A stretch of DNA of 32,114 nt from an uncultured Eubacteriales bacterium (GCA_900321645.1 ONWZ01000137.1:1-32114); one strand, 5' to 3'; numbered from the stretch's first letter, positions 24,724 through 30,183 are shown. Notes: generated by a model from the sequence alone, not told the origin. Program-made: numbers and translations.

Positions 24724-24754
24724 AAAGAAAAAAAGAATAAAATCAATTATTCTT
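24724..24754 (-). terminator. Intrinsic terminator overlapping the metG stop codon; the only terminator seen downstream of the YcaO operon
   Basis: The minus strand reads AAGAATAA-TTGATT-TTATTCTT followed by TTTTTCTTT. Confidence 0.6.
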
Positions 24755-26390
24755 ATTTATTTTTTATTTTTTTGTATGTGTTTTCTTCATCTAATCTACT
24801 ATATAGCATTGATGAATTATTAATTTTATAGTCACCTTTAATTACTTCTTCTTTCCATGTATATGTTGGTAACGTTAACATATCTTTGATTCTTTTTGAA
24901 CAATTTGGTAAGACAGGCTCAACTAAATTGGCTAGATTAGCAATCATATATATACATGTATAGGTTGTATCATTAAAACTGGCTAAATCATTTTTAACTT
25001 GAATCCATGGTTCACGACTATCATAATATTTATTAGCTAAACTAATATATTCAATTATTTGTGTTGTGGCATTTCTTATTTCGCCTCTTTCAAAATATTC
25101 ACCAACTATTTTGAAAGTTTTTTGGGTAATATCAATTATTCTTTTATCAATGTTTGCTTCTTTGATGATACCATCAAATCTTTTATTGATAAATGAGAGA
25201 TTTCTATTTACAAAATTGCCTAACATTCCCACTAAATATTTATTATGTGTTTGAATTATATCTTCAATAGAACAACTTATATCATTGGTTTCAGGTCCTT
25301 TAAGTGAGAAATAGAACCTTATGGTATCACTATCAAATTTTTCCAATAATTCATTAATTGTTATTAGATTACCTTTAGATTTACTCATTTTTTCTTGATT
25401 TAGGTTTACGTAGGCAGAAGAAATTATGTAATCTGGCAAGCGATAATTGTTTTTAATGGCCATTATTAAAGCTGGATAGATAGTTGTATGAAAAGGGATA
25501 TTATCTTTACCATGAACATAATATGTTATGAGGTTTTCATTTTCATTTGACATATATTTGTCAAAATCGATGCCTCTTTCTTCAGCTACTTTTTGGCCTA
25601 CTGATAAATAGCCTAAAACAGCTTCAATCCACACATAGATTCTTTTATCGTCATAGCCATCTACGGGTACTGGAACTCCCCATTCCAATTGTCTAGTTGC
25701 AGCTCTATCTACTAGCCCAGTATTAATATATTTTTGTGCTTCACCAATAGCGTTTTTACGCCATTTATTTTTATTATCATCGATTAATTGCTGAAGCAAT
25801 TCAGTAAATTCTGGCAATTTAAAATATAGGTGTTTATTCTTTCTCAAGGCTGTTGTATTGCCACATTCTTTACAATGTTTATCTAATACTTCACTACTAT
25901 CTAATGATGAACCACAACTATCACATTGATCGCCGGTACTTTTTTTACCACAGTGTGGACATGTTCCTTCAATTTCTCTATCCGATAAAAATTTATGGCA
26001 TTTTTCACAGTAATCTTGTAATTCTTCTCTTTCATAGATATACCCGTTTTCAACCATTTTTTTGAATTGTTTCATAACATACTGTTTGTGATGGTTATCC
26101 ATAGTAGCAGCATATTCATCATACTTAAAATTTGAAGCAGTGAACGTTTTAACAAATTCATTATGATAATATTCGGCTATTTCTTGTGGGCTTTTATGTT
26201 CCTTTTTGGCTCTCTCAGTTATTGGTGTACCATGGCAGTCTGATCCTGATACATAAATGACATTATCGCCTTTACCGCGGTAATATCTAGCAATGATATC
26301 TCCCGGCAATAAGGCAGCAAAATGTCCAACATGTAAATAATAATTGGCATATGGCCAAGCGCCACCAATAAATACGTCTTTTTTATTCAT
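24753..26390 (-). CDS. metG: Methionyl-tRNA synthetase, short form without the C-terminal tRNA-binding domain, with four CxxC pairs in the connective-peptide insertion
   Basis: 545 aa. HIGH-type motif YYLHVGH and KMSKS are present. CEKC...CPHC...CDSC...CKEC are read from the translation. SD GGGGGAGAA. It starts only 19 nt downstream of the preceding ORF. Confidence 0.9.
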   Translation of the reverse strand: MNKKDVFIGGAWPYANYYLHVGHFAALLPGDIIARYYRGKGDNVIYVSGSDCHGTPITERAKKEHKSPQEIAEYYHNEFVKTFTASNFKYDEYAATMDNHHKQYVMKQFKKMVENGYIYEREELQDYCEKCHKFLSDREIEGTCPHCGKKSTGDQCDSCGSSLDSSEVLDKHCKECGNTTALRKNKHLYFKLPEFTELLQQLIDDNKNKWRKNAIGEAQKYINTGLVDRAATRQLEWGVPVPVDGYDDKRIYVWIEAVLGYLSVGQKVAEERGIDFDKYMSNENENLITYYVHGKDNIPFHTTIYPALIMAIKNNYRLPDYIISSAYVNLNQEKMSKSKGNLITINELLEKFDSDTIRFYFSLKGPETNDISCSIEDIIQTHNKYLVGMLGNFVNRNLSFINKRFDGIIKEANIDKRIIDITQKTFKIVGEYFERGEIRNATTQIIEYISLANKYYDSREPWIQVKNDLASFNDTTYTCIYMIANLANLVEPVLPNCSKRIKDMLTLPTYTWKEEVIKGDYKINNSSMLYSRLDEENTYKKIKNK

Positions 26391-26409
26391 TTTCTCCCCC
26401 TGTTAAGTT

Positions 26410-26775
26410 TTACATTTCTTTGTATACATTAATTATTGTTTGACCAAAACATTTTTTATTTTTGTCATATATTACATTATCTATAACCGGGAACATATGA
26501 TAATCATTTTCTTTTTTACAAAATACAATATATTTCCCTTTTCCTAGTTTTAAATCATCGGTGTTAGTTGCTTTTACATTTATTCTCTGATAATTATTAT
26601 TTGATAAATATTTTTCAAAAACAATTTGTTCTCGATAATCATCACAATTTAAATTATGAGCTAAAGCTAGTAGTTCTTCTTTTACGATATAGAAGTCTTT
26701 ATTTAATAATTTAGTAAATGTTCTTATGACGCAACTTCCTTTTTCATCAACTGGATTGTATTCAATAAATTTCAC
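26410..26775 (-). CDS. 121-aa protein with papain-fold-like Cys...His...Asp/Asn arrangement (predicted thiol peptidase or acyltransferase)
   Basis: GSCVIRTF lies near the N-terminus and YHMFPVIDNVIYD near the C-terminus. The start was re-assigned to the GTG at 26775, preceded by AAGGAGG-ATAAA, 10 nt after the YcaO stop. The track start at 26811 is an internal GTG overlapping ycaO. Confidence 0.6.
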   Translation of the reverse strand: MKFIEYNPVDEKGSCVIRTFTKLLNKDFYIVKEELLALAHNLNCDDYREQIVFEKYLSNNNYQRINVKATNTDDLKLGKGKYIVFCKKENDYHMFPVIDNVIYDKNKKCFGQTIINVYKEM

Positions 26776-26785
26776 TTTATCCTCC

Positions 26786-28060
26786 TTATGGAAATGGATG
26801 CGGTGTTTCACGCAATTCTTCCTTAACTTTAATATTTAATTTAGCTGGTACTGTCCAAAATCTATCAGCTCCCAATCTAGGTAATATGTGACTTTTATTT
26901 AAATCTATTAATCCGGGAGCGATTACTTTAACGACTTTAATGCCCGTATTGGCAACATCGGCGGTTGTAATTTCTTTATAATATACATCAATGTGATTTT
27001 TTTGCAAATTATCAATTATTTGCTTATGGGTAATTTTTTTTCTTTTATATGCAATCTTTTTACTATCAAATAAGATTTTATTAAAATTCTCTTTTTGATA
27101 GTATAAGAAATGTTCATATAAGGCTGTTATTTCATTAGGATTAGTTTTTCTTTCATTTAAGATGTTTTTAGAATAGAAAAAAGTAAATAAACATTCTTTT
27201 AACGATTTATTAATAGCAATATCAGAATCTTTATTAGCACATCCGCCAATTCCATAGTGAATTACGCCATGTTTCTTTTGCCATATTAATGATAGATAGG
27301 TAGGAACACCACTATCGGTATATAGATTATATATCTTAATGGAATAATCTTTAGCAATTGTTGAGATAAACTTTTTATTAATGCCAGTTATGGTTTCAAT
27401 GTCAATTTCTGGCGGATTTAATTTTTGCATAAAGTTTATCATTAGTGCGTCTCGCTCAATTAATTCCAATAAGCCACTCTCGATACAATCTGCTATTCTT
27501 ATACCAGCGGCGGTTCCTGTCGTAGTTGTTTCAGCTACTGGTTTAGAAATATTAAATGGAATGTATATTAAACTGGCTGGCCAATATTTCCAAGTTTTAC
27601 CGTCTAATGATACTACCTTCGTCCAATGTAGGTGATCCTTTTCGGGATTAGCAAATTGTTTATTTTGATCATATTGTTTTTGGCTATATGTATAAAAATT
27701 TTGAAATACTCGTGATTTGGGTAATTCACTTTTTTTCTTATATATAACTTCTTTTTTGGGAATATATGAAATAGTATATCTTTCGATGGCCTCAGCAAGA
27801 CAACTTATCATAGCAGATTTTTCATCTTCACTTACGCCTAAACCACCGCTCGACACTTCTCTGTCAAGATTATATAATACTTTAGCATTGGCACTTAAAC
27901 ATTGATACATATATAACCCATATTTCGATAGTTCTTCCCTTTTTAACATCGCATTTATGATACCAAATTTATCACTAAATATTTCTGCTAAACCATTATA
28001 ATCTTTTCCTAGGAAATCAATTATTTCTTTTGAATCTAAGATTAATTTATTCTTTTTCAT
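26786..28060 (-). CDS. Stand-alone YcaO-domain protein (ATP-dependent peptide backbone amide activation)
   Basis: SGGLGVSEDEKSAMISCLAEAIERYT and GLLELIERDA are YcaO signatures. The C-terminus ...ETPHPFP-stop is a PxPxP motif. The start is set to the ATG at 28060, preceded by AGGTGA (the track start at 28069 is a GTG). Confidence 0.85.
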   Translation of the reverse strand: MKKNKLILDSKEIIDFLGKDYNGLAEIFSDKFGIINAMLKREELSKYGLYMYQCLSANAKVLYNLDREVSSGGLGVSEDEKSAMISCLAEAIERYTISYIPKKEVIYKKKSELPKSRVFQNFYTYSQKQYDQNKQFANPEKDHLHWTKVVSLDGKTWKYWPASLIYIPFNISKPVAETTTTGTAAGIRIADCIESGLLELIERDALMINFMQKLNPPEIDIETITGINKKFISTIAKDYSIKIYNLYTDSGVPTYLSLIWQKKHGVIHYGIGGCANKDSDIAINKSLKECLFTFFYSKNILNERKTNPNEITALYEHFLYYQKENFNKILFDSKKIAYKRKKITHKQIIDNLQKNHIDVYYKEITTADVANTGIKVVKVIAPGLIDLNKSHILPRLGADRFWTVPAKLNIKVKEELRETPHPFP

Positions 28061-28373
28061 AATTATCACCTGGTACTGGTATTATCTTATGTATTTTTAT
28101 TTTATTGCCTTCAATTTCATATATTTCATTTTCTTTTAAGTGTGAATAATAAGTATCTAACAAAGTAGTTATTTTCTTCTTATTTATCTTTTTTTTATAT
28201 ATCTTGGTTGAATATATACAATTAGATTGTATTCTTTTAATAAATGAATTTACGTCAAAATTTGTGGTTATTCTAGGCCCAATAAGATATGCTTTTTTTG
28301 TTTTACCGACAAGGATATCAATATTTTCAATATTTTTATTATTTAGTATTTCATAATAGGATATATATTTCAT
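28047..28373 (-). CDS. 108-aa Lys-rich hypothetical protein, translationally coupled to ycaO
   Basis: SD GAGGTGA lies 5 nt before the ATG. The ORF starts 13 nt after the upstream stop, and its 3' end overlaps the ycaO start by 14 nt. No recognisable motif. Confidence 0.6.
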   Translation of the reverse strand: MKYISYYEILNNKNIENIDILVGKTKKAYLIGPRITTNFDVNSFIKRIQSNCIYSTKIYKKKINKKKITTLLDTYYSHLKENEIYEIEGNKIKIHKIIPVPGDNYEKE

Positions 28374-28386
28374 TATTTCACCTCTA

Positions 28387-30003
28387 TTATTTTCTAATTA
28401 GTCCCTTGCCTTTTACACGTGCATATTCAATTATTTTATCATCTGCTTGATTGTTAAATGTTTCTAGACTTGCCAATAATTTATCTTTTTCTTTGGTCTT
28501 TTGTTTTATCGTTATGCACCATCTTCCAATTCCAGTATTCATATACTGGAATAGCGCTATTGGATTTAGCGTAATGTTACCACCCTTTAGTGGATCAAAA
28601 GCAATAATATTCTCTTCGTCATAACCACATAGTAGTATGGCATGTAAATAGTTTCCACTATTGCCAGCTAACATTACTATTTTATTATTTTTTAGTTGGT
28701 CAATAATAAAATCATAATCAATATCTATACCATTATTGACTTTGACATTTACTTCTTTTGCCAAATCTATGTATTTTTGATATTCAGCCATTCCTTTATC
28801 AAATAGATATTTTGGTAAATAATGTCGTTTATTGGTAAAGATATTGGGTTCTGAGTGAACTAATTCAACATCCAAGTCATTTTTAGCAAGTTCATAAGCA
28901 ACTGCCGAAAACGGTGTTCCGATTAGAACTCTTGAACGATATTTTTTAAAGTAGGAAAATTCATTTTTAGAGTTAATATCAGATATGCATCCATAATACT
29001 TCATCGCTGACAACATACATACGATAGCACACGTATCGGCATTTTGAGTATATTTAGGAACATTTTTAATCATTCTGTGTTCTGATCTCTCATGTAATTT
29101 TTCGAGTCCTTCAAGAACTGTTTTATCTGAAAACTCATAAATATATCCATTATTTTTTAGTATTCTACTTTCGTTTAAGTATTCTAAAATTTTTTTTCTA
29201 TATAAAAAACCTGATATACCAATTAATTGAAATGCTAATAGTTTTTCATCAACATTATCATATTTAATTATTTCATTAAATGCTTTTCTATCTGGATGTT
29301 CAAGCATAAGATAATAATGCTTAGTTTTGTAATCTTGAGATATCTTGTATGAATTAATTATTTTTACCAATTCTTCAATGCTTAATTCTGTTTTTGATTC
29401 AAAATCTCTTTTAAATCTACTTTTAAAAATGATTTCGTCATTAGCATGATATTGATTTAATAAATATTTTCCCCATTTAACACTTTCACTATCATTACTT
29501 TTGGTTAGAACGATATACTTTAAATGATCTATTTGATATTGTACATAGAATGGTTCAATTGGTGGTGTCAATAACATGAATTGCGAATCATTGACATTAT
29601 AATCTTCATTGACGATTGAGATTTTATCTAGCCAATAGTCTAAATGCTTTTTTATACCACAAGATGTTATCATCGTTACTTTATCGACGTTAAGACAGGT
29701 ATTATATACCGCAATTAATTCTTTTACCTGTGATGGTGTCAATTCATCTAAATTACTAGTAATTAATTCTTTATAAGCAACTTCTAATCCATCTTCATAG
29801 AATTTATTATGCCAAAGCCATCTTTCTTTTAATTCTTTTAGATAGATGGTTGGTGGTATAAGAATAAAACTATCAATCAATTCAAATATCTCTTTATTAT
29901 CTTCAGCATAATTTCTATTTGCATTAAGTAATTGTTCTTCCAACACTCCATCAATAATTGGTTTCATATCGGTAGGTATTATTTCTCTTTTAATTAGATT
30001 CAT
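28387..30003 (-). CDS. 538-aa cytoplasmic protein: unknown ~330-aa N-terminal region plus a C-terminal C39-type cysteine peptidase domain
   Basis: Cys motif QNADTCAIVCMLSAMKYYG. His motif HAILLCGYDEENIIAFDP, with the canonical H-x15-DP spacing. No TM or ABC domains. The start is set to the ATG at 30003, preceded by AAGGAGG-AATAAA. The 28-codon GTG extension in the track is rejected. Confidence 0.8.
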   Translation of the reverse strand: MNLIKREIIPTDMKPIIDGVLEEQLLNANRNYAEDNKEIFELIDSFILIPPTIYLKELKERWLWHNKFYEDGLEVAYKELITSNLDELTPSQVKELIAVYNTCLNVDKVTMITSCGIKKHLDYWLDKISIVNEDYNVNDSQFMLLTPPIEPFYVQYQIDHLKYIVLTKSNDSESVKWGKYLLNQYHANDEIIFKSRFKRDFESKTELSIEELVKIINSYKISQDYKTKHYYLMLEHPDRKAFNEIIKYDNVDEKLLAFQLIGISGFLYRKKILEYLNESRILKNNGYIYEFSDKTVLEGLEKLHERSEHRMIKNVPKYTQNADTCAIVCMLSAMKYYGCISDINSKNEFSYFKKYRSRVLIGTPFSAVAYELAKNDLDVELVHSEPNIFTNKRHYLPKYLFDKGMAEYQKYIDLAKEVNVKVNNGIDIDYDFIIDQLKNNKIVMLAGNSGNYLHAILLCGYDEENIIAFDPLKGGNITLNPIALFQYMNTGIGRWCITIKQKTKEKDKLLASLETFNNQADDKIIEYARVKGKGLIRK

Positions 30004-30031
30004 TTTATTCCTCCTTAATGGTGATAATGTA

Positions 30032-30056
30032 CTGCTGCGATATGTACTCGCAGCAG
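30032..30056 (-). other. GC-rich perfect 9-bp stem / 7-nt loop RNA hairpin between the 18-codon ORF and the C39 gene
   Basis: The plus strand reads CTGCTGCGA-TATGTAC-TCGCAGCAG, with seven G:C pairs in an otherwise very AT-rich region. No U-tract follows on the minus-strand transcript, so it is not a canonical terminator. Confidence 0.6.
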
Positions 30057-30074
30057 CACAATATCTTAACCATA

Positions 30075-30131
30075 TTATCCAGTACACATCAAATCGTACT
30101 TTTTGTTAAATTTTCTCATTAATTTTTTCAT
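30075..30131 (-). CDS. 18-codon ORF (MKKLMRKFNKKYDLMCTG): candidate precursor peptide or regulatory leader peptide at the head of the YcaO operon
   Basis: Hand translation of the minus strand. A strong SD GGAGG lies 8 nt upstream of the ATG (GGAGGCGAAAAAAATG). This SD is separate from that of the next gene. No homology evidence is available. Confidence 0.35.
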   Translation of the reverse strand: MKKLMRKFNKKYDLMCTG

Positions 30132-30183
30132 TTTTTTCGCCTCCTTTTTAATTAGTTTTTTGTTGAGATCACTATAAACTCAA

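What the first reader, a model, noticed from the sequence alone, without database searches (positions are those of the whole stretch)
24753..30131. YcaO operon with an orphan C39 peptidase, two small ORFan proteins and a co-transcribed MetRS: candidate undescribed peptide or protein amide-modification system
Six minus-strand reading frames are packed as one apparent transcription unit. In order they are:
- an 18-codon ORF with its own SD;
- a GC-rich hairpin;
- the C39-domain protein;
- after a 13-nt gap, a 108-aa ORF;
- after a 14-nt overlap, ycaO;
- after a 10-nt gap, a 121-aa Cys/His protein;
- after a 19-nt gap, metG.
The only intrinsic terminator I can see is at the metG stop. The YcaO has the ATP/Mg-site style motifs (AEAIERYT, LELIERDA) and ends in PHPFP. 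That PxPxP C-terminus is known from catalytically active cyclodehydratase-type YcaOs.

None of the usual partners is recognisable. I see no E1/ThiF-like or Ocin-ThiF-like protein, no McbC-type FMN dehydrogenase, no TfuA, no methyltransferase, no ABC exporter and no immunity gene. Instead there are two putative thiol peptidase folds and an aminoacyl-tRNA synthetase. That combination does not match the azol(in)e, thioamide, bottromycin or amidine YcaO cluster architectures I know.

By eye, the cassette DNA and its Lys/Asn/Ile-rich proteins look even more AT-biased than the flanking polC and aspS. That is compatible with horizontal acquisition.
Basis: partly seen in the sequence, partly recalled or inferred. 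Interest (0 to 1): 0.85.

Follow-up and report, generated by a model that had tools for sequence, protein, structure and literature searches.

The report
New YcaO peptide-modification cassette; MetRS bystander
The window holds a real, conserved and apparently undescribed four-gene cassette (an 18-residue peptide gene, a protease fusion, a small partner protein and a YcaO enzyme) that probably makes a tiny modified peptide, and the methionyl-tRNA synthetase next to it is an ordinary housekeeping neighbour.

Summary
Comparison with 25 distinct related loci splits it in two.

**Conserved core**
- It comprises the 18-codon ORF, a hairpin, a 538-aa protein (new acidic all-helical domain plus C39-type cysteine peptidase), a 108-aa protein and a SagD-like YcaO ending in PHPFP.
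- It occurs in every complete locus, in gut and rumen uncultured Bacilli and in Paceibacterota (CPR).
- The small ORF is under purifying selection (consensus M+KL+KKFN+KYD[LM][LMI]C[T/C][AGSV]).
- It stays with the cassette even where it has moved to between the peptidase gene and the 108-aa gene.
- No E1-like, Ocin-ThiF, TfuA, FMN-dehydrogenase or exporter partner was detected.

**Not core**
- metG follows the cassette only in the window's own clade. It has more than 100 orthologue clusters at 73-81% identity and sits among housekeeping genes in relatives without the cassette.
- The 121-aa protein is a patchy accessory. Its thiol-peptidase fold is unverified.
- The AT-bias argument does not hold.

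**Best reading:** a new family of YcaO-dependent ribosomal peptide maturation, probably azoline formation at Cys16/Thr17, that uses non-canonical partner proteins.

The parts
30163..30183 (-). Conserved non-coding element TTGAGTTTATAGTGATCTCAA directly after the relA stop. It contains a TATAGT -10-like box and is the putative promoter or operator of the cassette.
   Evidence: Conserved as TGAGTTTATAG[TG]GA[TG]CTCA in 12 of the 13 aligned loci whose upstream flank carries the end of relA. The cassette copy in a mobile context (L008) has a canonical TTGACA-17-TATAAT instead. Function is inferred.
30075..30131 (-). 18-codon ORF, MKKLMRKFNKKYDLMCTG. It is the candidate precursor (substrate) peptide: basic N-terminal part, invariant Cys16, Thr17 and a small last residue.
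   Evidence: Strong SD. Present in 24 of 25 distinct loci, including CPR loci where it has moved. pN/pS = 0.22 with pS = 0.72. K7, F8, K11, D13 and C16 are invariant. Position 17 is Thr, or Cys in L025.
30018..30073 (-). Stem-loop between the small ORF and the peptidase gene (13-bp G+C-rich core at 30028-30060), with no T-run here. Probably an attenuator or transcript-stabilising element.
   Evidence: -31.6 kcal/mol, z = -7. A hairpin of unrelated sequence follows the small ORF in all 16 loci tested. In CPR loci it carries a T-run, as a terminator would.
28387..30003 (-). 538-aa fusion protein. Residues 1-307 form a new acidic all-helical domain. Residues 308-530 form a C39-type papain-fold cysteine peptidase (Gln320, Cys325, His454, Asp470).
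   Evidence: AlphaFold2 pLDDT 92. Foldseek best hits are LahT150, ComA PEP and 3erv, with target TM about 0.7, for the C-terminal domain only. PF13529 scores 22.2 bits. The family has about 112 clusters, all 516-561 aa apart from five truncated entries (331-467 aa). The N-domain has pI 5.35, net charge -10.
28047..28373 (-). 108-aa basic protein, always placed between the peptidase gene and ycaO and overlapping the ycaO start. It is the candidate YcaO partner or peptide-recognition subunit.
   Evidence: Present in every complete locus. AlphaFold2 pLDDT 84. No Pfam, NCBIfam or PDB sequence match. The only recurrent Foldseek hits are E. coli MccB chains, and they are not significant (E 0.4-3, query TM 0.34-0.47).
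26786..28060 (-). YcaO, 424 aa, SagD-like ATP-dependent cyclodehydratase type, ending in PHPFP.
   Evidence: PF02624 at 1.4e-40. TIGR03604 scores 199 bits, below its cut-off of 219. Best PDB relatives are TruD, LynD, MusD and McbD. It is 50% identical to the Paceibacterota copy, which also ends in PHPFP.
26410..26775 (-). 121-aa Cys/His/Asp protein (GTG start). A lineage-specific accessory gene of unknown function.
   Evidence: It directly follows ycaO only in the window clade. Homologues lie near the cassette in L030 (after a radical SAM gene) and L005 (upstream of relA). It is a small family: 59 representatives among 1.84 billion proteins. Cys15 and Asp104 are invariant; His93 is near-invariant. 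No family or fold assignment was obtained.
24753..26390 (-). metG, a 545-aa two-knuckle (E. coli-type) MetRS without the C-terminal tRNA-binding domain. It is an adjacent housekeeping gene, possibly co-transcribed, and is not part of the conserved cassette.
   Evidence: TIGR00398 scores 460 bits, above its cut-off. HIGH (HVGH) and KMSKS motifs are intact. More than 100 clusters share 73-81% identity. It occurs without the cassette in L048 and L049. It is adjacent to the cassette in only one clade. No T-box or other Rfam element lies upstream.
24727..24754 (-). Weak A+U-rich hairpin plus T-run at the metG stop. A possible terminator.
   Evidence: 8-bp stem AAGAAUAA/UUAUUCUU followed by UUUUUC. 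The consensus scan, which requires G-C pairs, did not detect it.

Best explanation
The window carries one member of a compact, previously unclassified family of YcaO-dependent ribosomal-peptide maturation cassettes.

Proposed mechanism:
1. The 18-residue peptide (basic N-terminal two thirds, C-terminal D-[LM]-[LMI]-Cys-Thr-small) is the substrate.
2. It is transcribed from a promoter just after relA. The stem-loop behind it lets the peptide message outnumber the enzyme message.
3. The SagD-like YcaO uses ATP to activate the backbone amide before Cys16, and probably the one before Thr17. This would give a thiazoline, perhaps a thiazoline-methyloxazoline pair, at the C-terminus.
4. No E1-like or Ocin-ThiF partner exists. 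Substrate recognition and YcaO activation are instead supplied by the 108-aa protein, which is translationally coupled to ycaO, and/or by the acidic 307-residue helical domain fused to the peptidase.
5. The C39-type Cys/His domain then trims the basic leader at a site that is not a double glycine.

Other points:
- In most other lineages, further tailoring genes follow ycaO (a Pol-beta-type nucleotidyltransferase, then thiE, a MoaA/viperin-like radical SAM enzyme, NUDIX or a nucleotide kinase).
- In the window's clade that place is taken by the 121-aa Cys/His protein.
- metG is simply the next housekeeping gene.

Shown: gene content, conservation, selection on the peptide, folds, and absence of known partners. 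Inferred: the substrate-enzyme relation, the chemistry, the roles of the 108-aa protein and the helical domain, and the cleavage.
For: - Core co-occurrence: peptidase fusion, 108-aa protein and YcaO occur in all complete loci, 25 distinct sequences.
- The small ORF is present in 24 of 25 loci. It is kept at 17-18 residues with Cys16 invariant across Bacilli and Paceibacterota, although the enzymes diverge to 33-50% identity.
- In CPR loci it has moved to between the peptidase and the 108-aa gene, with its own TTGACT...TAtACT box and a terminator-like hairpin.
- The one natural change at position 17 is Thr to Cys, another residue that can be cyclised.
- A hairpin follows the peptide gene in 16 of 16 loci.
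- The YcaO is of SagD type and keeps PHPFP.
- The peptidase has a confident C39 fold with an invariant Gln/Cys/His/Asp set.
- The peptide is basic (pI 10, net +5) and the helical domain is acidic (pI 5.35, net -10).
- The CAG:776-type loci (L014, L018) have nothing but these four genes on that strand, so the core looks self-sufficient.
Against: - No chemistry has been observed.
- The peptide has only two residues that can be cyclised and no recognisable leader/core boundary or double-glycine site.
- No exporter, immunity gene or dehydrogenase is present.
- The YcaO scores below the curated SagD-family cut-off (199 vs 219 bits).
- The 108-aa protein could not be shown to be an RRE. The Foldseek hits to MccB are not significant.
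- The many invariant polar residues of the helical domain suggest an enzyme rather than a docking module. An additional unknown reaction may therefore be central.
- The peptide is far more strongly conserved than antibiotic RiPP cores usually are.
- The YcaO gene is split by a frameshift in some members (L008, L009, L032, L028).
Confidence: 0.6

Rival explanations
1. One reading: all six genes, including MetRS, form one functional system. MetRS would act as a self-resistance copy against a MetRS-targeting product, or as a supplier of Met-tRNA for peptide extension.
For: - The gaps are tight (19 nt before metG), and no T-box or other leader RNA lies upstream of metG.
- The arrangement is kept in a sister species with a 70% identical peptidase.
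- That sister locus also carries a divergent ProRS-like paralogue and LeuRS just downstream.
Against: - metG follows the cassette in only 3 of 25 distinct loci, all in one clade.
- More than 100 clusters of 73-81% identical MetRS exist, which outnumbers and out-conserves the cassette.
- The closest homologue (81%) lies between a NUDIX gene and polC with no cassette. Another (75%) lies four genes downstream of relA with no cassette.
- The C-terminal residue of the peptide is Ala, Gly, Ser or Val, not Met.
- No LanB-like or PEARL enzyme is present.
Confidence: 0.06
2. The YcaO modifies a cellular protein, as with McrA or uL16 thioamidation or the E. coli YcaO/S12 link. The small ORF would be only a regulatory leader peptide controlling the operon through the hairpin.
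For: - The chromosomal position next to relA and housekeeping genes is stable in dozens of gut lineages.
- No exporter or immunity gene is present.
- The peptide sequence is unusually conserved.
- The hairpin lies directly downstream of the small ORF.
- Protein-modifying YcaOs are known (PMC5589413, PMC13063428, listed).
Against: - The small ORF keeps its amino-acid sequence, not just its position, across phyla.
- In CPR loci it sits downstream of the first enzyme gene with its own promoter-like box and terminator. That placement does not fit a leader that controls the whole operon.
- No TfuA is present.
- The YcaO is closest to azoline-forming SagD, TruD, LynD and McbD and keeps PxPxP.
- The cassette also travels in mobile contexts.
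Confidence: 0.12
3. The end product is a peptide-nucleotide conjugate or a cofactor-like or signalling molecule rather than a plain azoline peptide. The YcaO-activated or heterocyclised C-terminus would be joined to, or processed together with, a nucleotide by the accessory enzymes. The system would be functionally tied to nucleotide or alarmone metabolism.
For: - A Pol-beta-type nucleotidyltransferase directly follows ycaO in 13 of 25 distinct loci.
- It is followed by thiE, by a MoaA/viperin-like radical SAM enzyme with or without a NUDIX-C39 fusion, or by a Cmk/NadR-like kinase.
- A RelA/SpoT-family gene is adjacent both in Bacilli (full-length Rel) and in some Paceibacterota loci (HD-only hydrolase).
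- A tiny precursor followed by a hairpin resembles microcin C, and the 108-aa model's only recurrent hits are MccB chains.
- Strong conservation of the whole peptide is typical of cofactor-type RiPPs (established knowledge for PqqA and MftA).
Against: - The window's own cassette and the CAG:776-type loci lack the nucleotidyltransferase altogether, so nucleotide attachment cannot be essential to the core.
- The accessory genes differ between lineages.
- thiE passes the housekeeping ThiE cut-off and may be a bystander.
- The relA linkage in Bacilli may reflect one ancestral insertion.
- The MccB resemblance is not significant.
Confidence: 0.15
4. The cassette is decaying or non-functional in this genome, and the conservation reflects recent spread of a selfish or mobile module.
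For: - Some members sit next to relaxase, resolvase or Bro-N genes.
- Some have a frameshifted ycaO.
- The Bacilli and CPR YcaOs share 50% identity, which suggests horizontal transfer.
Against: - All four core genes are intact here, with start and stop positions matching homologues.
- Purifying selection acts on the peptide.
- Catalytic residues are invariant.
- Synteny with relA is stable across lineages whose peptidases have diverged to about 45% identity.
Confidence: 0.04

Closest known systems
Linear azol(in)e peptide (TOMM) synthetases of the streptolysin S / microcin B17 type (SagBCD, McbBCD)
   Same: - A discrete SagD-like YcaO of about 425 aa with the ATP/Mg motifs and the C-terminal PxPxP.
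- A short ribosomal precursor with Cys/Thr next to the enzymes.
- A protease in the cluster.
- TIGR03604 is the best NCBIfam hit.
- McbD is among the PDB sequence hits.
   Different: - No E1-like C protein (SagC/McbB), no FMN dehydrogenase, and no ABC exporter or immunity gene.
- The precursor is only 17-18 residues with two cyclisable residues and is highly conserved instead of hypervariable.
- The YcaO scores below the family cut-off (199 vs 219 bits).
F-protein-dependent cyclodehydratases (heterocycloanthracin, thiopeptides) and cyanobactin heterocyclases (PatD/TruD/LynD)
   Same: - Leader recognition is delegated to a separate or fused module of about 100 residues (an RRE) that also activates the YcaO (PMC4603692). 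The 108-aa protein, translationally coupled to ycaO, is the right size and place for that role.
- TruD and LynD are the best PDB sequence matches to the YcaO.
   Different: - The 108-aa protein matches no RRE, Ocin-ThiF or PqqD model and no solved structure significantly.
- Its predicted topology (three strands, three helices, two strands) is not shown to be a winged helix-turn-helix.
Bottromycin-type stand-alone YcaOs (BotC/BotCD)
   Same: - The YcaO acts without an E1-like partner.
- A single thiazoline forms from a Cys near the C-terminal end of the core.
- There is no canonical N-terminal leader logic. (Established knowledge, not tested here.)
   Different: - No follower peptide, no radical SAM methyltransferases, and no amidohydrolase or M17 peptidase set.
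- Different phyla.
- Here two dedicated new proteins always accompany the YcaO.
Double-glycine C39 peptidase domains (LahT150, ComA PEP, PCAT1)
   Same: Papain-like fold with target TM about 0.7 and a Gln/Cys/His/Asp catalytic set.
   Different: - Not fused to an ABC transporter.
- Preceded by a 307-residue acidic helical domain with no detectable relative.
- The candidate substrate has no GG, GA or GS site.
Microcin C (mccA heptapeptide gene, hairpin, MccB)
   Same: - A very short precursor ORF followed by a stem-loop and then the modifying enzymes.
- Nucleotide-handling accessory genes occur in most family members.
- The weak, recurrent Foldseek hits of the 108-aa model are all MccB chains.
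   Different: - No ThiF/E1-type adenylating enzyme.
- The ATP-using enzyme is a YcaO.
- The resemblance to MccB is below significance.
- The C-terminal residue is not Asn.

Membership tests
TOMM / linear azol(in)e peptide cyclodehydratase system | YcaO (D protein) domain with ATP/Mg-binding motifs | tested here: met
   PF02624 at 1.4e-40, profile positions 3-324 of 325. AEAIERY and LELIERDA are in the translation.
TOMM / linear azol(in)e peptide cyclodehydratase system | Score above the curated SagD-family model TIGR03604 | tested here: not met
   199 bits against a cut-off of 219.25. The CPR copy scores 189 bits. It is still by far the best-scoring family.
TOMM / linear azol(in)e peptide cyclodehydratase system | C-terminal PxPxP motif | tested here: met
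   The protein ends in PHPFP, and the 50%-identical Paceibacterota copy ends identically.
TOMM / linear azol(in)e peptide cyclodehydratase system | E1-like C protein or Ocin-ThiF-like F protein carrying an RRE | tested here: not met
   No Pfam or NCBIfam hit for the 538-aa, 108-aa or 121-aa proteins. No PDB profile hit. Foldseek gave nothing significant.
TOMM / linear azol(in)e peptide cyclodehydratase system | FMN-dependent dehydrogenase (B protein) for azole formation | tested here: not met
   No nitroreductase- or SagB-type hit among the window proteins scanned (18 of 26 genes, Pfam; the six scanned with NCBIfam). None appears in the Pfam tables of the loci that have them. Loci L014-L047 were not scanned for it.
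TOMM / linear azol(in)e peptide cyclodehydratase system | Precursor with a leader and a Cys/Ser/Thr-rich core | tested here: inconclusive
   A conserved 17-18-residue peptide lies next to the enzymes, but it has only Cys16 and Thr17 (Cys in one lineage) and no evident leader/core boundary.
TOMM / linear azol(in)e peptide cyclodehydratase system | Azoline or azole actually installed in the peptide | not testable with these tools
   Needs expression and mass spectrometry.
C39 bacteriocin-processing peptidase | Papain-like fold with a Gln/Cys/His/Asp catalytic set | tested here: met
   Model pLDDT 92. Best Foldseek hits are 6mpz, 5xe9, 3k8u and 3erv. Q320, C325, H454 and D470 are invariant in 33 sequences.
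C39 bacteriocin-processing peptidase | Pfam PF03412/PF13529 above the gathering score | tested here: inconclusive
   The window copy scores 22.2 bits against 24. Most relatives carry a precomputed PF13529 hit.
C39 bacteriocin-processing peptidase | Double-glycine-type cleavage site in the substrate, and fusion to or pairing with an ABC exporter | tested here: not met
   No GG, GA or GS lies upstream of the C-terminal residues in any of 19 peptide variants. No ABC transporter is in the window or the conserved neighbourhood.
YcaO-TfuA thioamidation systems | Adjacent TfuA partner | tested here: not met
   No TfuA hit in any cassette protein. TIGR03266 scores only 60.7 bits against a cut-off of 365.
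Microcin C-like peptide-nucleotide systems | ThiF/E1-type MccB adenylating enzyme | tested here: not met
   No ThiF-family hit. Only a non-significant structural resemblance of the 108-aa model to MccB chains (E 0.4-3).
Aminoacyl-tRNA synthetase as a biosynthetic-cluster component (self-resistance or donor) | Co-occurrence of the synthetase with the cluster across the family | tested here: not met
   metG is adjacent in 3 of 25 distinct loci, all in one clade. Orthologues at 75-81% identity lie in cassette-free housekeeping contexts.
Aminoacyl-tRNA synthetase as a biosynthetic-cluster component (self-resistance or donor) | A second, divergent copy in addition to the housekeeping enzyme | not testable with these tools
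   No complete genome of this organism was available. The copy here is the lineage-typical type.

The most novel reading that the evidence does not exclude
The cassette makes a conserved small molecule from the last few residues of an 18-mer, rather than a strain-specific antibiotic. The molecule would be a cofactor-, metallophore- or signal-like azoline compound, in many lineages further joined to or processed with a nucleotide.

The YcaO would be served by two protein modules with no known relatives: the 108-aa partner and the 307-residue acidic helical domain, whose roughly 25 invariant polar and aromatic residues suggest a new enzyme activity.

The system is shared between reduced-genome gut Bacilli and CPR Paceibacterota. 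It is repeatedly linked to RelA/SpoT-family genes, which would tie a RiPP-like pathway to nucleotide or alarmone physiology.
Probability: 0.2. Interest if true: 0.85.

Novelty: new variant of a known kind. Interest (0 to 1): 0.62.

Why it matters
- YcaO enzymes are known to need an E1-like, Ocin-ThiF-like or TfuA partner, or to work alone. A widespread family that always pairs a SagD-like YcaO with two unrelated, uncharacterised modules would add a new way of recruiting and activating this enzyme class.
- Its 17-18-residue precursor would be among the shortest candidate RiPP precursors.
- The hosts are uncultured, reduced-genome gut and rumen Bacilli (including the prevalent human-gut 'Mycoplasma sp. 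CAG:776' type) and CPR Paceibacterota. Little specialised peptide chemistry is reported from such organisms (my own knowledge, not tested here).
- The cassette is only four genes, about 3.4 kb, so it can be tested directly by synthesis and expression.
- Showing that metG is a bystander prevents a misleading 'tRNA synthetase in a RiPP cluster' story.

Tried and rejected
1. MetRS as a component was rejected on distribution and synteny.
2. Compositional island was rejected. Per-gene GC of the cassette falls in the window's range; only the two smallest genes are low.
3. The 121-aa protein as a C39 or papain-like peptidase could not be supported. There is no Pfam or PDB hit, and hhalign against the cassette's own C39 domain gives probability 4%. 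Its fusions to DHH, GNAT, HIT and tautomerase domains are heterogeneous and uninformative.
4. The 108-aa protein as an RRE, PqqD or E1 fragment could not be supported. There is no HMM or PDB profile hit. The Foldseek top hits to MccB are not significant. hhalign against the peptidase's two domains found nothing.
5. N-terminal helical domain: no Foldseek or PDB profile relative. The model could not be cropped to search the domain alone.
6. The promoter/terminator consensus scan is uninformative in this AT-rich DNA (70 sites found, 72 expected).
7. Rfam found nothing in the window, so there is no T-box before metG.
8. PADLOC found no hit for the core proteins. Only accessory genes of other loci hit pVip, VakA and PDC models.
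9. Literature: five full-text searches, including the peptide motifs, found no description. The 2015 TOMM landscape paper does not mention such clusters.
10. A thiamine-thiazole route (because thiE follows the nucleotidyltransferase in many loci) was considered and set aside. A peptide-derived 2-substituted 4-carbonyl thiazoline does not match the substitution pattern of the thiamine thiazole (established chemistry), and the thiE passes the housekeeping cut-off.
11. The exact look-up of the 427-aa GTG-start YcaO failed. The 424-aa ATG start is the one on record.

Full report
**Observation**

- An 18-codon ORF (30131-30075, MKKLMRKFNKKYDLMCTG) lies behind a strong Shine-Dalgarno sequence.
- A G+C-rich stem-loop follows (core 30060-30028). 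The 74-nt spacer folds at -31.6 kcal/mol, z = -7 against shuffles.
- Next come a 538-aa gene (30003-28387), a 108-aa gene after 13 nt (28373-28047) and ycaO overlapping it by 14 nt (28060-26786).
- Then come a 121-aa gene after 10 nt (26775-26410, GTG start) and metG after 19 nt (26390-24753).
- The YcaO has the motifs AEAIERY and LELIERDA and ends in PHPFP.
- The window is from an uncultured low-GC (29.7%) Bacilli-type organism. The identical YcaO occurs on ENA metagenome-assembly contigs, and relatives are annotated 'uncultured Bacilli/Firmicutes bacterium'.

**What the proteins are**

*YcaO*
- It matches Pfam PF02624 over its whole length (1.4e-40).
- Its best curated family is the azoline-forming SagD family TIGR03604, but at 199 bits it is below the cut-off of 219.
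- Its nearest solved relatives by sequence are the cyanobactin heterocyclases TruD, LynD and MusD, and McbD.

*538-aa protein*
- It gave a confident AlphaFold2 model (pLDDT 92).
- Residues 308-530 are a C39-type papain fold. Best Foldseek matches are the double-glycine peptidases LahT150 and ComA and the C39-like 3erv, with target TM about 0.7.
- Gln320, Cys325, His454 and Asp470 are invariant in 33 homologues.
- Residues 1-307 are an all-helical domain with no match by Foldseek, Pfam/NCBIfam or PDB profile search.
- That domain is acidic (pI 5.35, net charge -10), whereas the small peptide is basic (pI 10, net +5).
- It keeps about 25 invariant polar and aromatic residues, even in the most distant homologue.

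*108-aa protein*
- It folds with pLDDT 84 into three strands, three helices and two strands.
- No HMM or PDB profile hit exists.
- The only recurrent Foldseek hits are E. coli MccB chains, and they are not significant (E 0.4-3).

*121-aa protein*
- It belongs to a small family: 59 representatives among 1.84 billion proteins.
- Cys15 and Asp104 are invariant and His93 is near-invariant.
- No family, structure or profile relation to the C39 domain was found. The 'second thiol peptidase' remains a guess.

*MetRS*
- It is a complete two-knuckle, E. coli-type enzyme without the C-terminal tRNA-binding domain (TIGR00398 at 460 bits).

**Comparative genomics**

One scan of species-representative genomes, one of metagenome contigs and exact look-ups gave 38 loci with the peptidase fusion and the YcaO. 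These represent 25 distinct peptidase sequences.

*Core*
- Every complete locus has the order peptidase fusion, 108-aa gene, ycaO.
- 24 of 25 loci have the small ORF. The remaining contig begins 80 nt before the peptidase gene.
- The peptide is M[RK][KR]L[MLR][RK]KF[NDE][RK]K[YFLMC]D[LM][LMI]C[TC][AGSV].
- Across 19 different nucleotide versions, pS is 0.72 and pN is 0.16.
- In four loci from Paceibacterota (CPR; name, taxonomy), the enzymes are only 33-50% identical to the window's.
- There the peptide is still MKFIKKFDKKYDLLCT[AS]. Its gene has moved to between the peptidase and the 108-aa gene, behind a TTGACT...TAtACT box and in front of a terminator-like hairpin.
- A hairpin of unrelated sequence follows the small ORF in all 16 loci examined.
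- A conserved coding sequence that travels with the enzymes, ends in an invariant Cys plus Thr (Cys in one lineage) and is followed by a stem-loop is the signature of a RiPP precursor gene. It is not the signature of a regulatory leader.

*What is not core: metG*
- metG follows the cassette only in the window's own clade: the window and its near-identical contigs, plus L012, L013 and L050, whose peptidase is 70% identical.
- The MetRS itself has more than 100 clusters at 73-81% identity. This is much more conserved, and more numerous, than the cassette proteins.
- Its closest non-identical homologue (81%) lies between a NUDIX gene and polC, followed by aspS, next to the same AMP-ligase and hybrid kinase genes that flank the window's metG, with no cassette (L048).
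- Another homologue (75%) lies four genes downstream of relA in a sporulating relative, again without the cassette (L049).
- metG is therefore the lineage's ordinary enzyme in its ordinary neighbourhood, and the cassette sits beside it.
- No T-box or other Rfam element precedes metG. It may well be read through from the cassette, but that is an operon accident, not a system.

*What is not core: the 121-aa gene*
- It is a patchy accessory. Besides the window clade, homologues lie after a radical SAM gene downstream of the cassette in L030, and upstream of relA in L005.
- Most loci lack it within 7-8 kb.

*Accessory genes elsewhere*
- In 13 of 25 distinct loci, ycaO is followed by a protein of about 300 aa with a Pol-beta nucleotidyltransferase signature. 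8 of 11 members give weak PF14907 hits and 3 give ANT(2'') hits.
- That gene is in turn followed by one of three things:
  - a thiE whose start overlaps its stop;
  - a MoaA/viperin-like radical SAM enzyme, with or without a NUDIX-C39 fusion;
  - a Cmk/NadR-like kinase in copies that sit next to relaxase, resolvase and CBASS genes.
- The CAG:776-type loci have nothing after ycaO on that strand. The four-gene core therefore looks self-sufficient.
- In the gut and rumen Bacilli the cassette almost always follows relA, with a conserved element TGAGTTTATAG[TG]GATCTCA right after the relA stop.
- In two of the CPR lineages, an HD-only RelA/SpoT-type hydrolase lies within about 1 kb.

**How it most likely works**

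Shown:
- gene content and co-occurrence;
- purifying selection on the peptide;
- the folds;
- the absence of E1-like, Ocin-ThiF, TfuA, dehydrogenase and exporter genes in the proteins scanned (18 of the window's 26 genes and the loci with Pfam tables).

Inferred:
- The 18-mer is the substrate.
- The SagD-like YcaO uses ATP to cyclodehydrate Cys16 and possibly Thr17. The one natural substitution at position 17 is to Cys, which keeps a cyclisable side chain.
- The 108-aa protein and/or the acidic helical domain replace the usual RRE-bearing partner in binding the basic N-terminal part of the peptide and activating the YcaO.
- The C39-type domain removes that part at a site that is not a double glycine.
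- With no dehydrogenase, the product would be an azoline rather than an azole.

I put this at about 0.6. The main uncertainty is the chemistry. The strongly conserved peptide, the lack of export and immunity genes, the enzyme-like conservation of the helical domain and the nucleotide-handling accessory genes all leave room for a different, possibly cofactor-like or nucleotide-linked, product.

**Comparison with what is known**

- The cassette works most like a linear azoline-peptide (TOMM) pathway.
- It resembles the F-protein-dependent systems in delegating leader recognition to a separate protein (PMC4603692).
- It resembles bottromycin-type YcaOs in lacking an E1-like partner.
- It fails the membership tests for the canonical TOMM trio: no C/F protein, no B protein, and a YcaO below the curated cut-off.
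- It fails the tests for PCAT-type C39 peptidases: no transporter and no GG site.
- It fails the tests for YcaO-TfuA systems and for microcin C systems.
- Full-text searches, including searches for the peptide motifs, found no description.
- I therefore rate it a new variant of a known kind: a YcaO-dependent RiPP pathway with new partner proteins and an unusually small, conserved precursor.

**Verdict**

There is a real and apparently undescribed YcaO cassette, but it has four genes, not six. MetRS is a bystander, and the compositional argument for horizontal acquisition does not hold here.
- Interest is 0.62.

Noticed in passing
L005 11290-12776; L010 11212-12733; L016, L019, L024, L026, L051 (same layout): In at least seven lineages the nucleotidyltransferase after ycaO is followed by a thiE that passes the curated ThiE cut-off (197-200 bits vs 145). 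The thiE start overlaps the nucleotidyltransferase stop. No thiM or thiD lies nearby.
   Followed up: partly
L006 4796-6614; L025 4909-6760; L030 5869-7198; L031 11201-13115; L007 11590-13029: Another set of lineages has, after the nucleotidyltransferase, a MoaA/viperin-like radical SAM enzyme (PADLOC pVip 9e-11; NCBIfam MoaA 1e-32 to 2e-37; viperin 3e-21). In three of these five loci (L006, L025, L031) a MutT-like NUDIX domain fused to a second copy of the cassette's C39 domain also follows.
   Followed up: partly
L035 11335-11994 (minus strand), L036 9224-9868 (minus strand), L044 4473-5147: In Paceibacterota (CPR) loci, a 214-224-aa HD-only RelA/SpoT-family hydrolase lies within about 1 kb of the cassette. 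This echoes the full-length relA directly upstream of the cassette in gut Bacilli. Two other CPR loci (L038, L042) lack it.
   Followed up: partly
window 30163-30183 and the matching place in 11 other relA-linked loci: A conserved non-coding element, TGAGTTTATAG[TG]GA[TG]CTCA, lies immediately after the relA stop. It contains a -10-like TATAGT and a short inverted repeat, so it may be a promoter or operator.
   Followed up: partly
L050 9713-15505 (also L012 6427-8799): The sister species of the window organism has four extra genes between metG and the AMP-ligase. They are a very divergent ProRS-like class II synthetase paralogue (TIGR00408 at 96 bits vs cut-off 437), a weak HprK-related kinase A match, a 334-aa unknown protein and LeuRS. 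None is present in the window.
   Followed up: partly
L008 1-7550 and 13833-16302; L009 6551-7381: The most divergent Bacilli-type cassette copies (38% identity) sit beside relaxase, Mob, resolvase and TnpV genes and a CBASS (SMODS + SAVED) pair, or beside a Bro-N gene. This suggests the cassette moves on mobile elements.
   Followed up: no
L008/L009 9954-11229; L032 2477-3752; L028 5106-6392: ycaO is split into two overlapping frames (361 + about 110 aa, or 70 + 342 aa) in contigs from several independent assemblies. This could be a real frameshift or pseudogene, or a recurrent assembly error.
   Followed up: no
L038 8798-9121 and other CPR copies of the 108-aa protein: The CPR versions of the 108-aa protein carry CxxC and a C-terminal PGCNH, a possible metal site. 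The Bacilli versions have no cysteines at those positions.
   Followed up: no
L038 10430-14022: Downstream of the CPR cassette lie an alpha/beta hydrolase, a 140-aa protein with an HExxH motif and a 796-aa protein. The 796-aa protein has an APH/Bud32-like kinase region and, by eye, a G-S...D-I-D nucleotidyltransferase motif.
   Followed up: partly
P0338, P0336, P0353, P0348 (homologues of window 26410-26775): A few homologues of the 121-aa protein are fused to GNAT, DHH, HIT or tautomerase domains. In L005 the stand-alone gene overlaps the end of a GNAT gene.
   Followed up: partly
window 1-24664: The rest of the window is housekeeping: MiaB-like and another radical SAM enzyme, LexA, RuvAB, Ddl, AspRS, PolC, an SPFH protein, GNAT, two NUDIX proteins, a hybrid histidine kinase/receiver and an AMP-dependent ligase. 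The ligase and kinase also flank metG in the cassette-free relative L048.
   Followed up: yes
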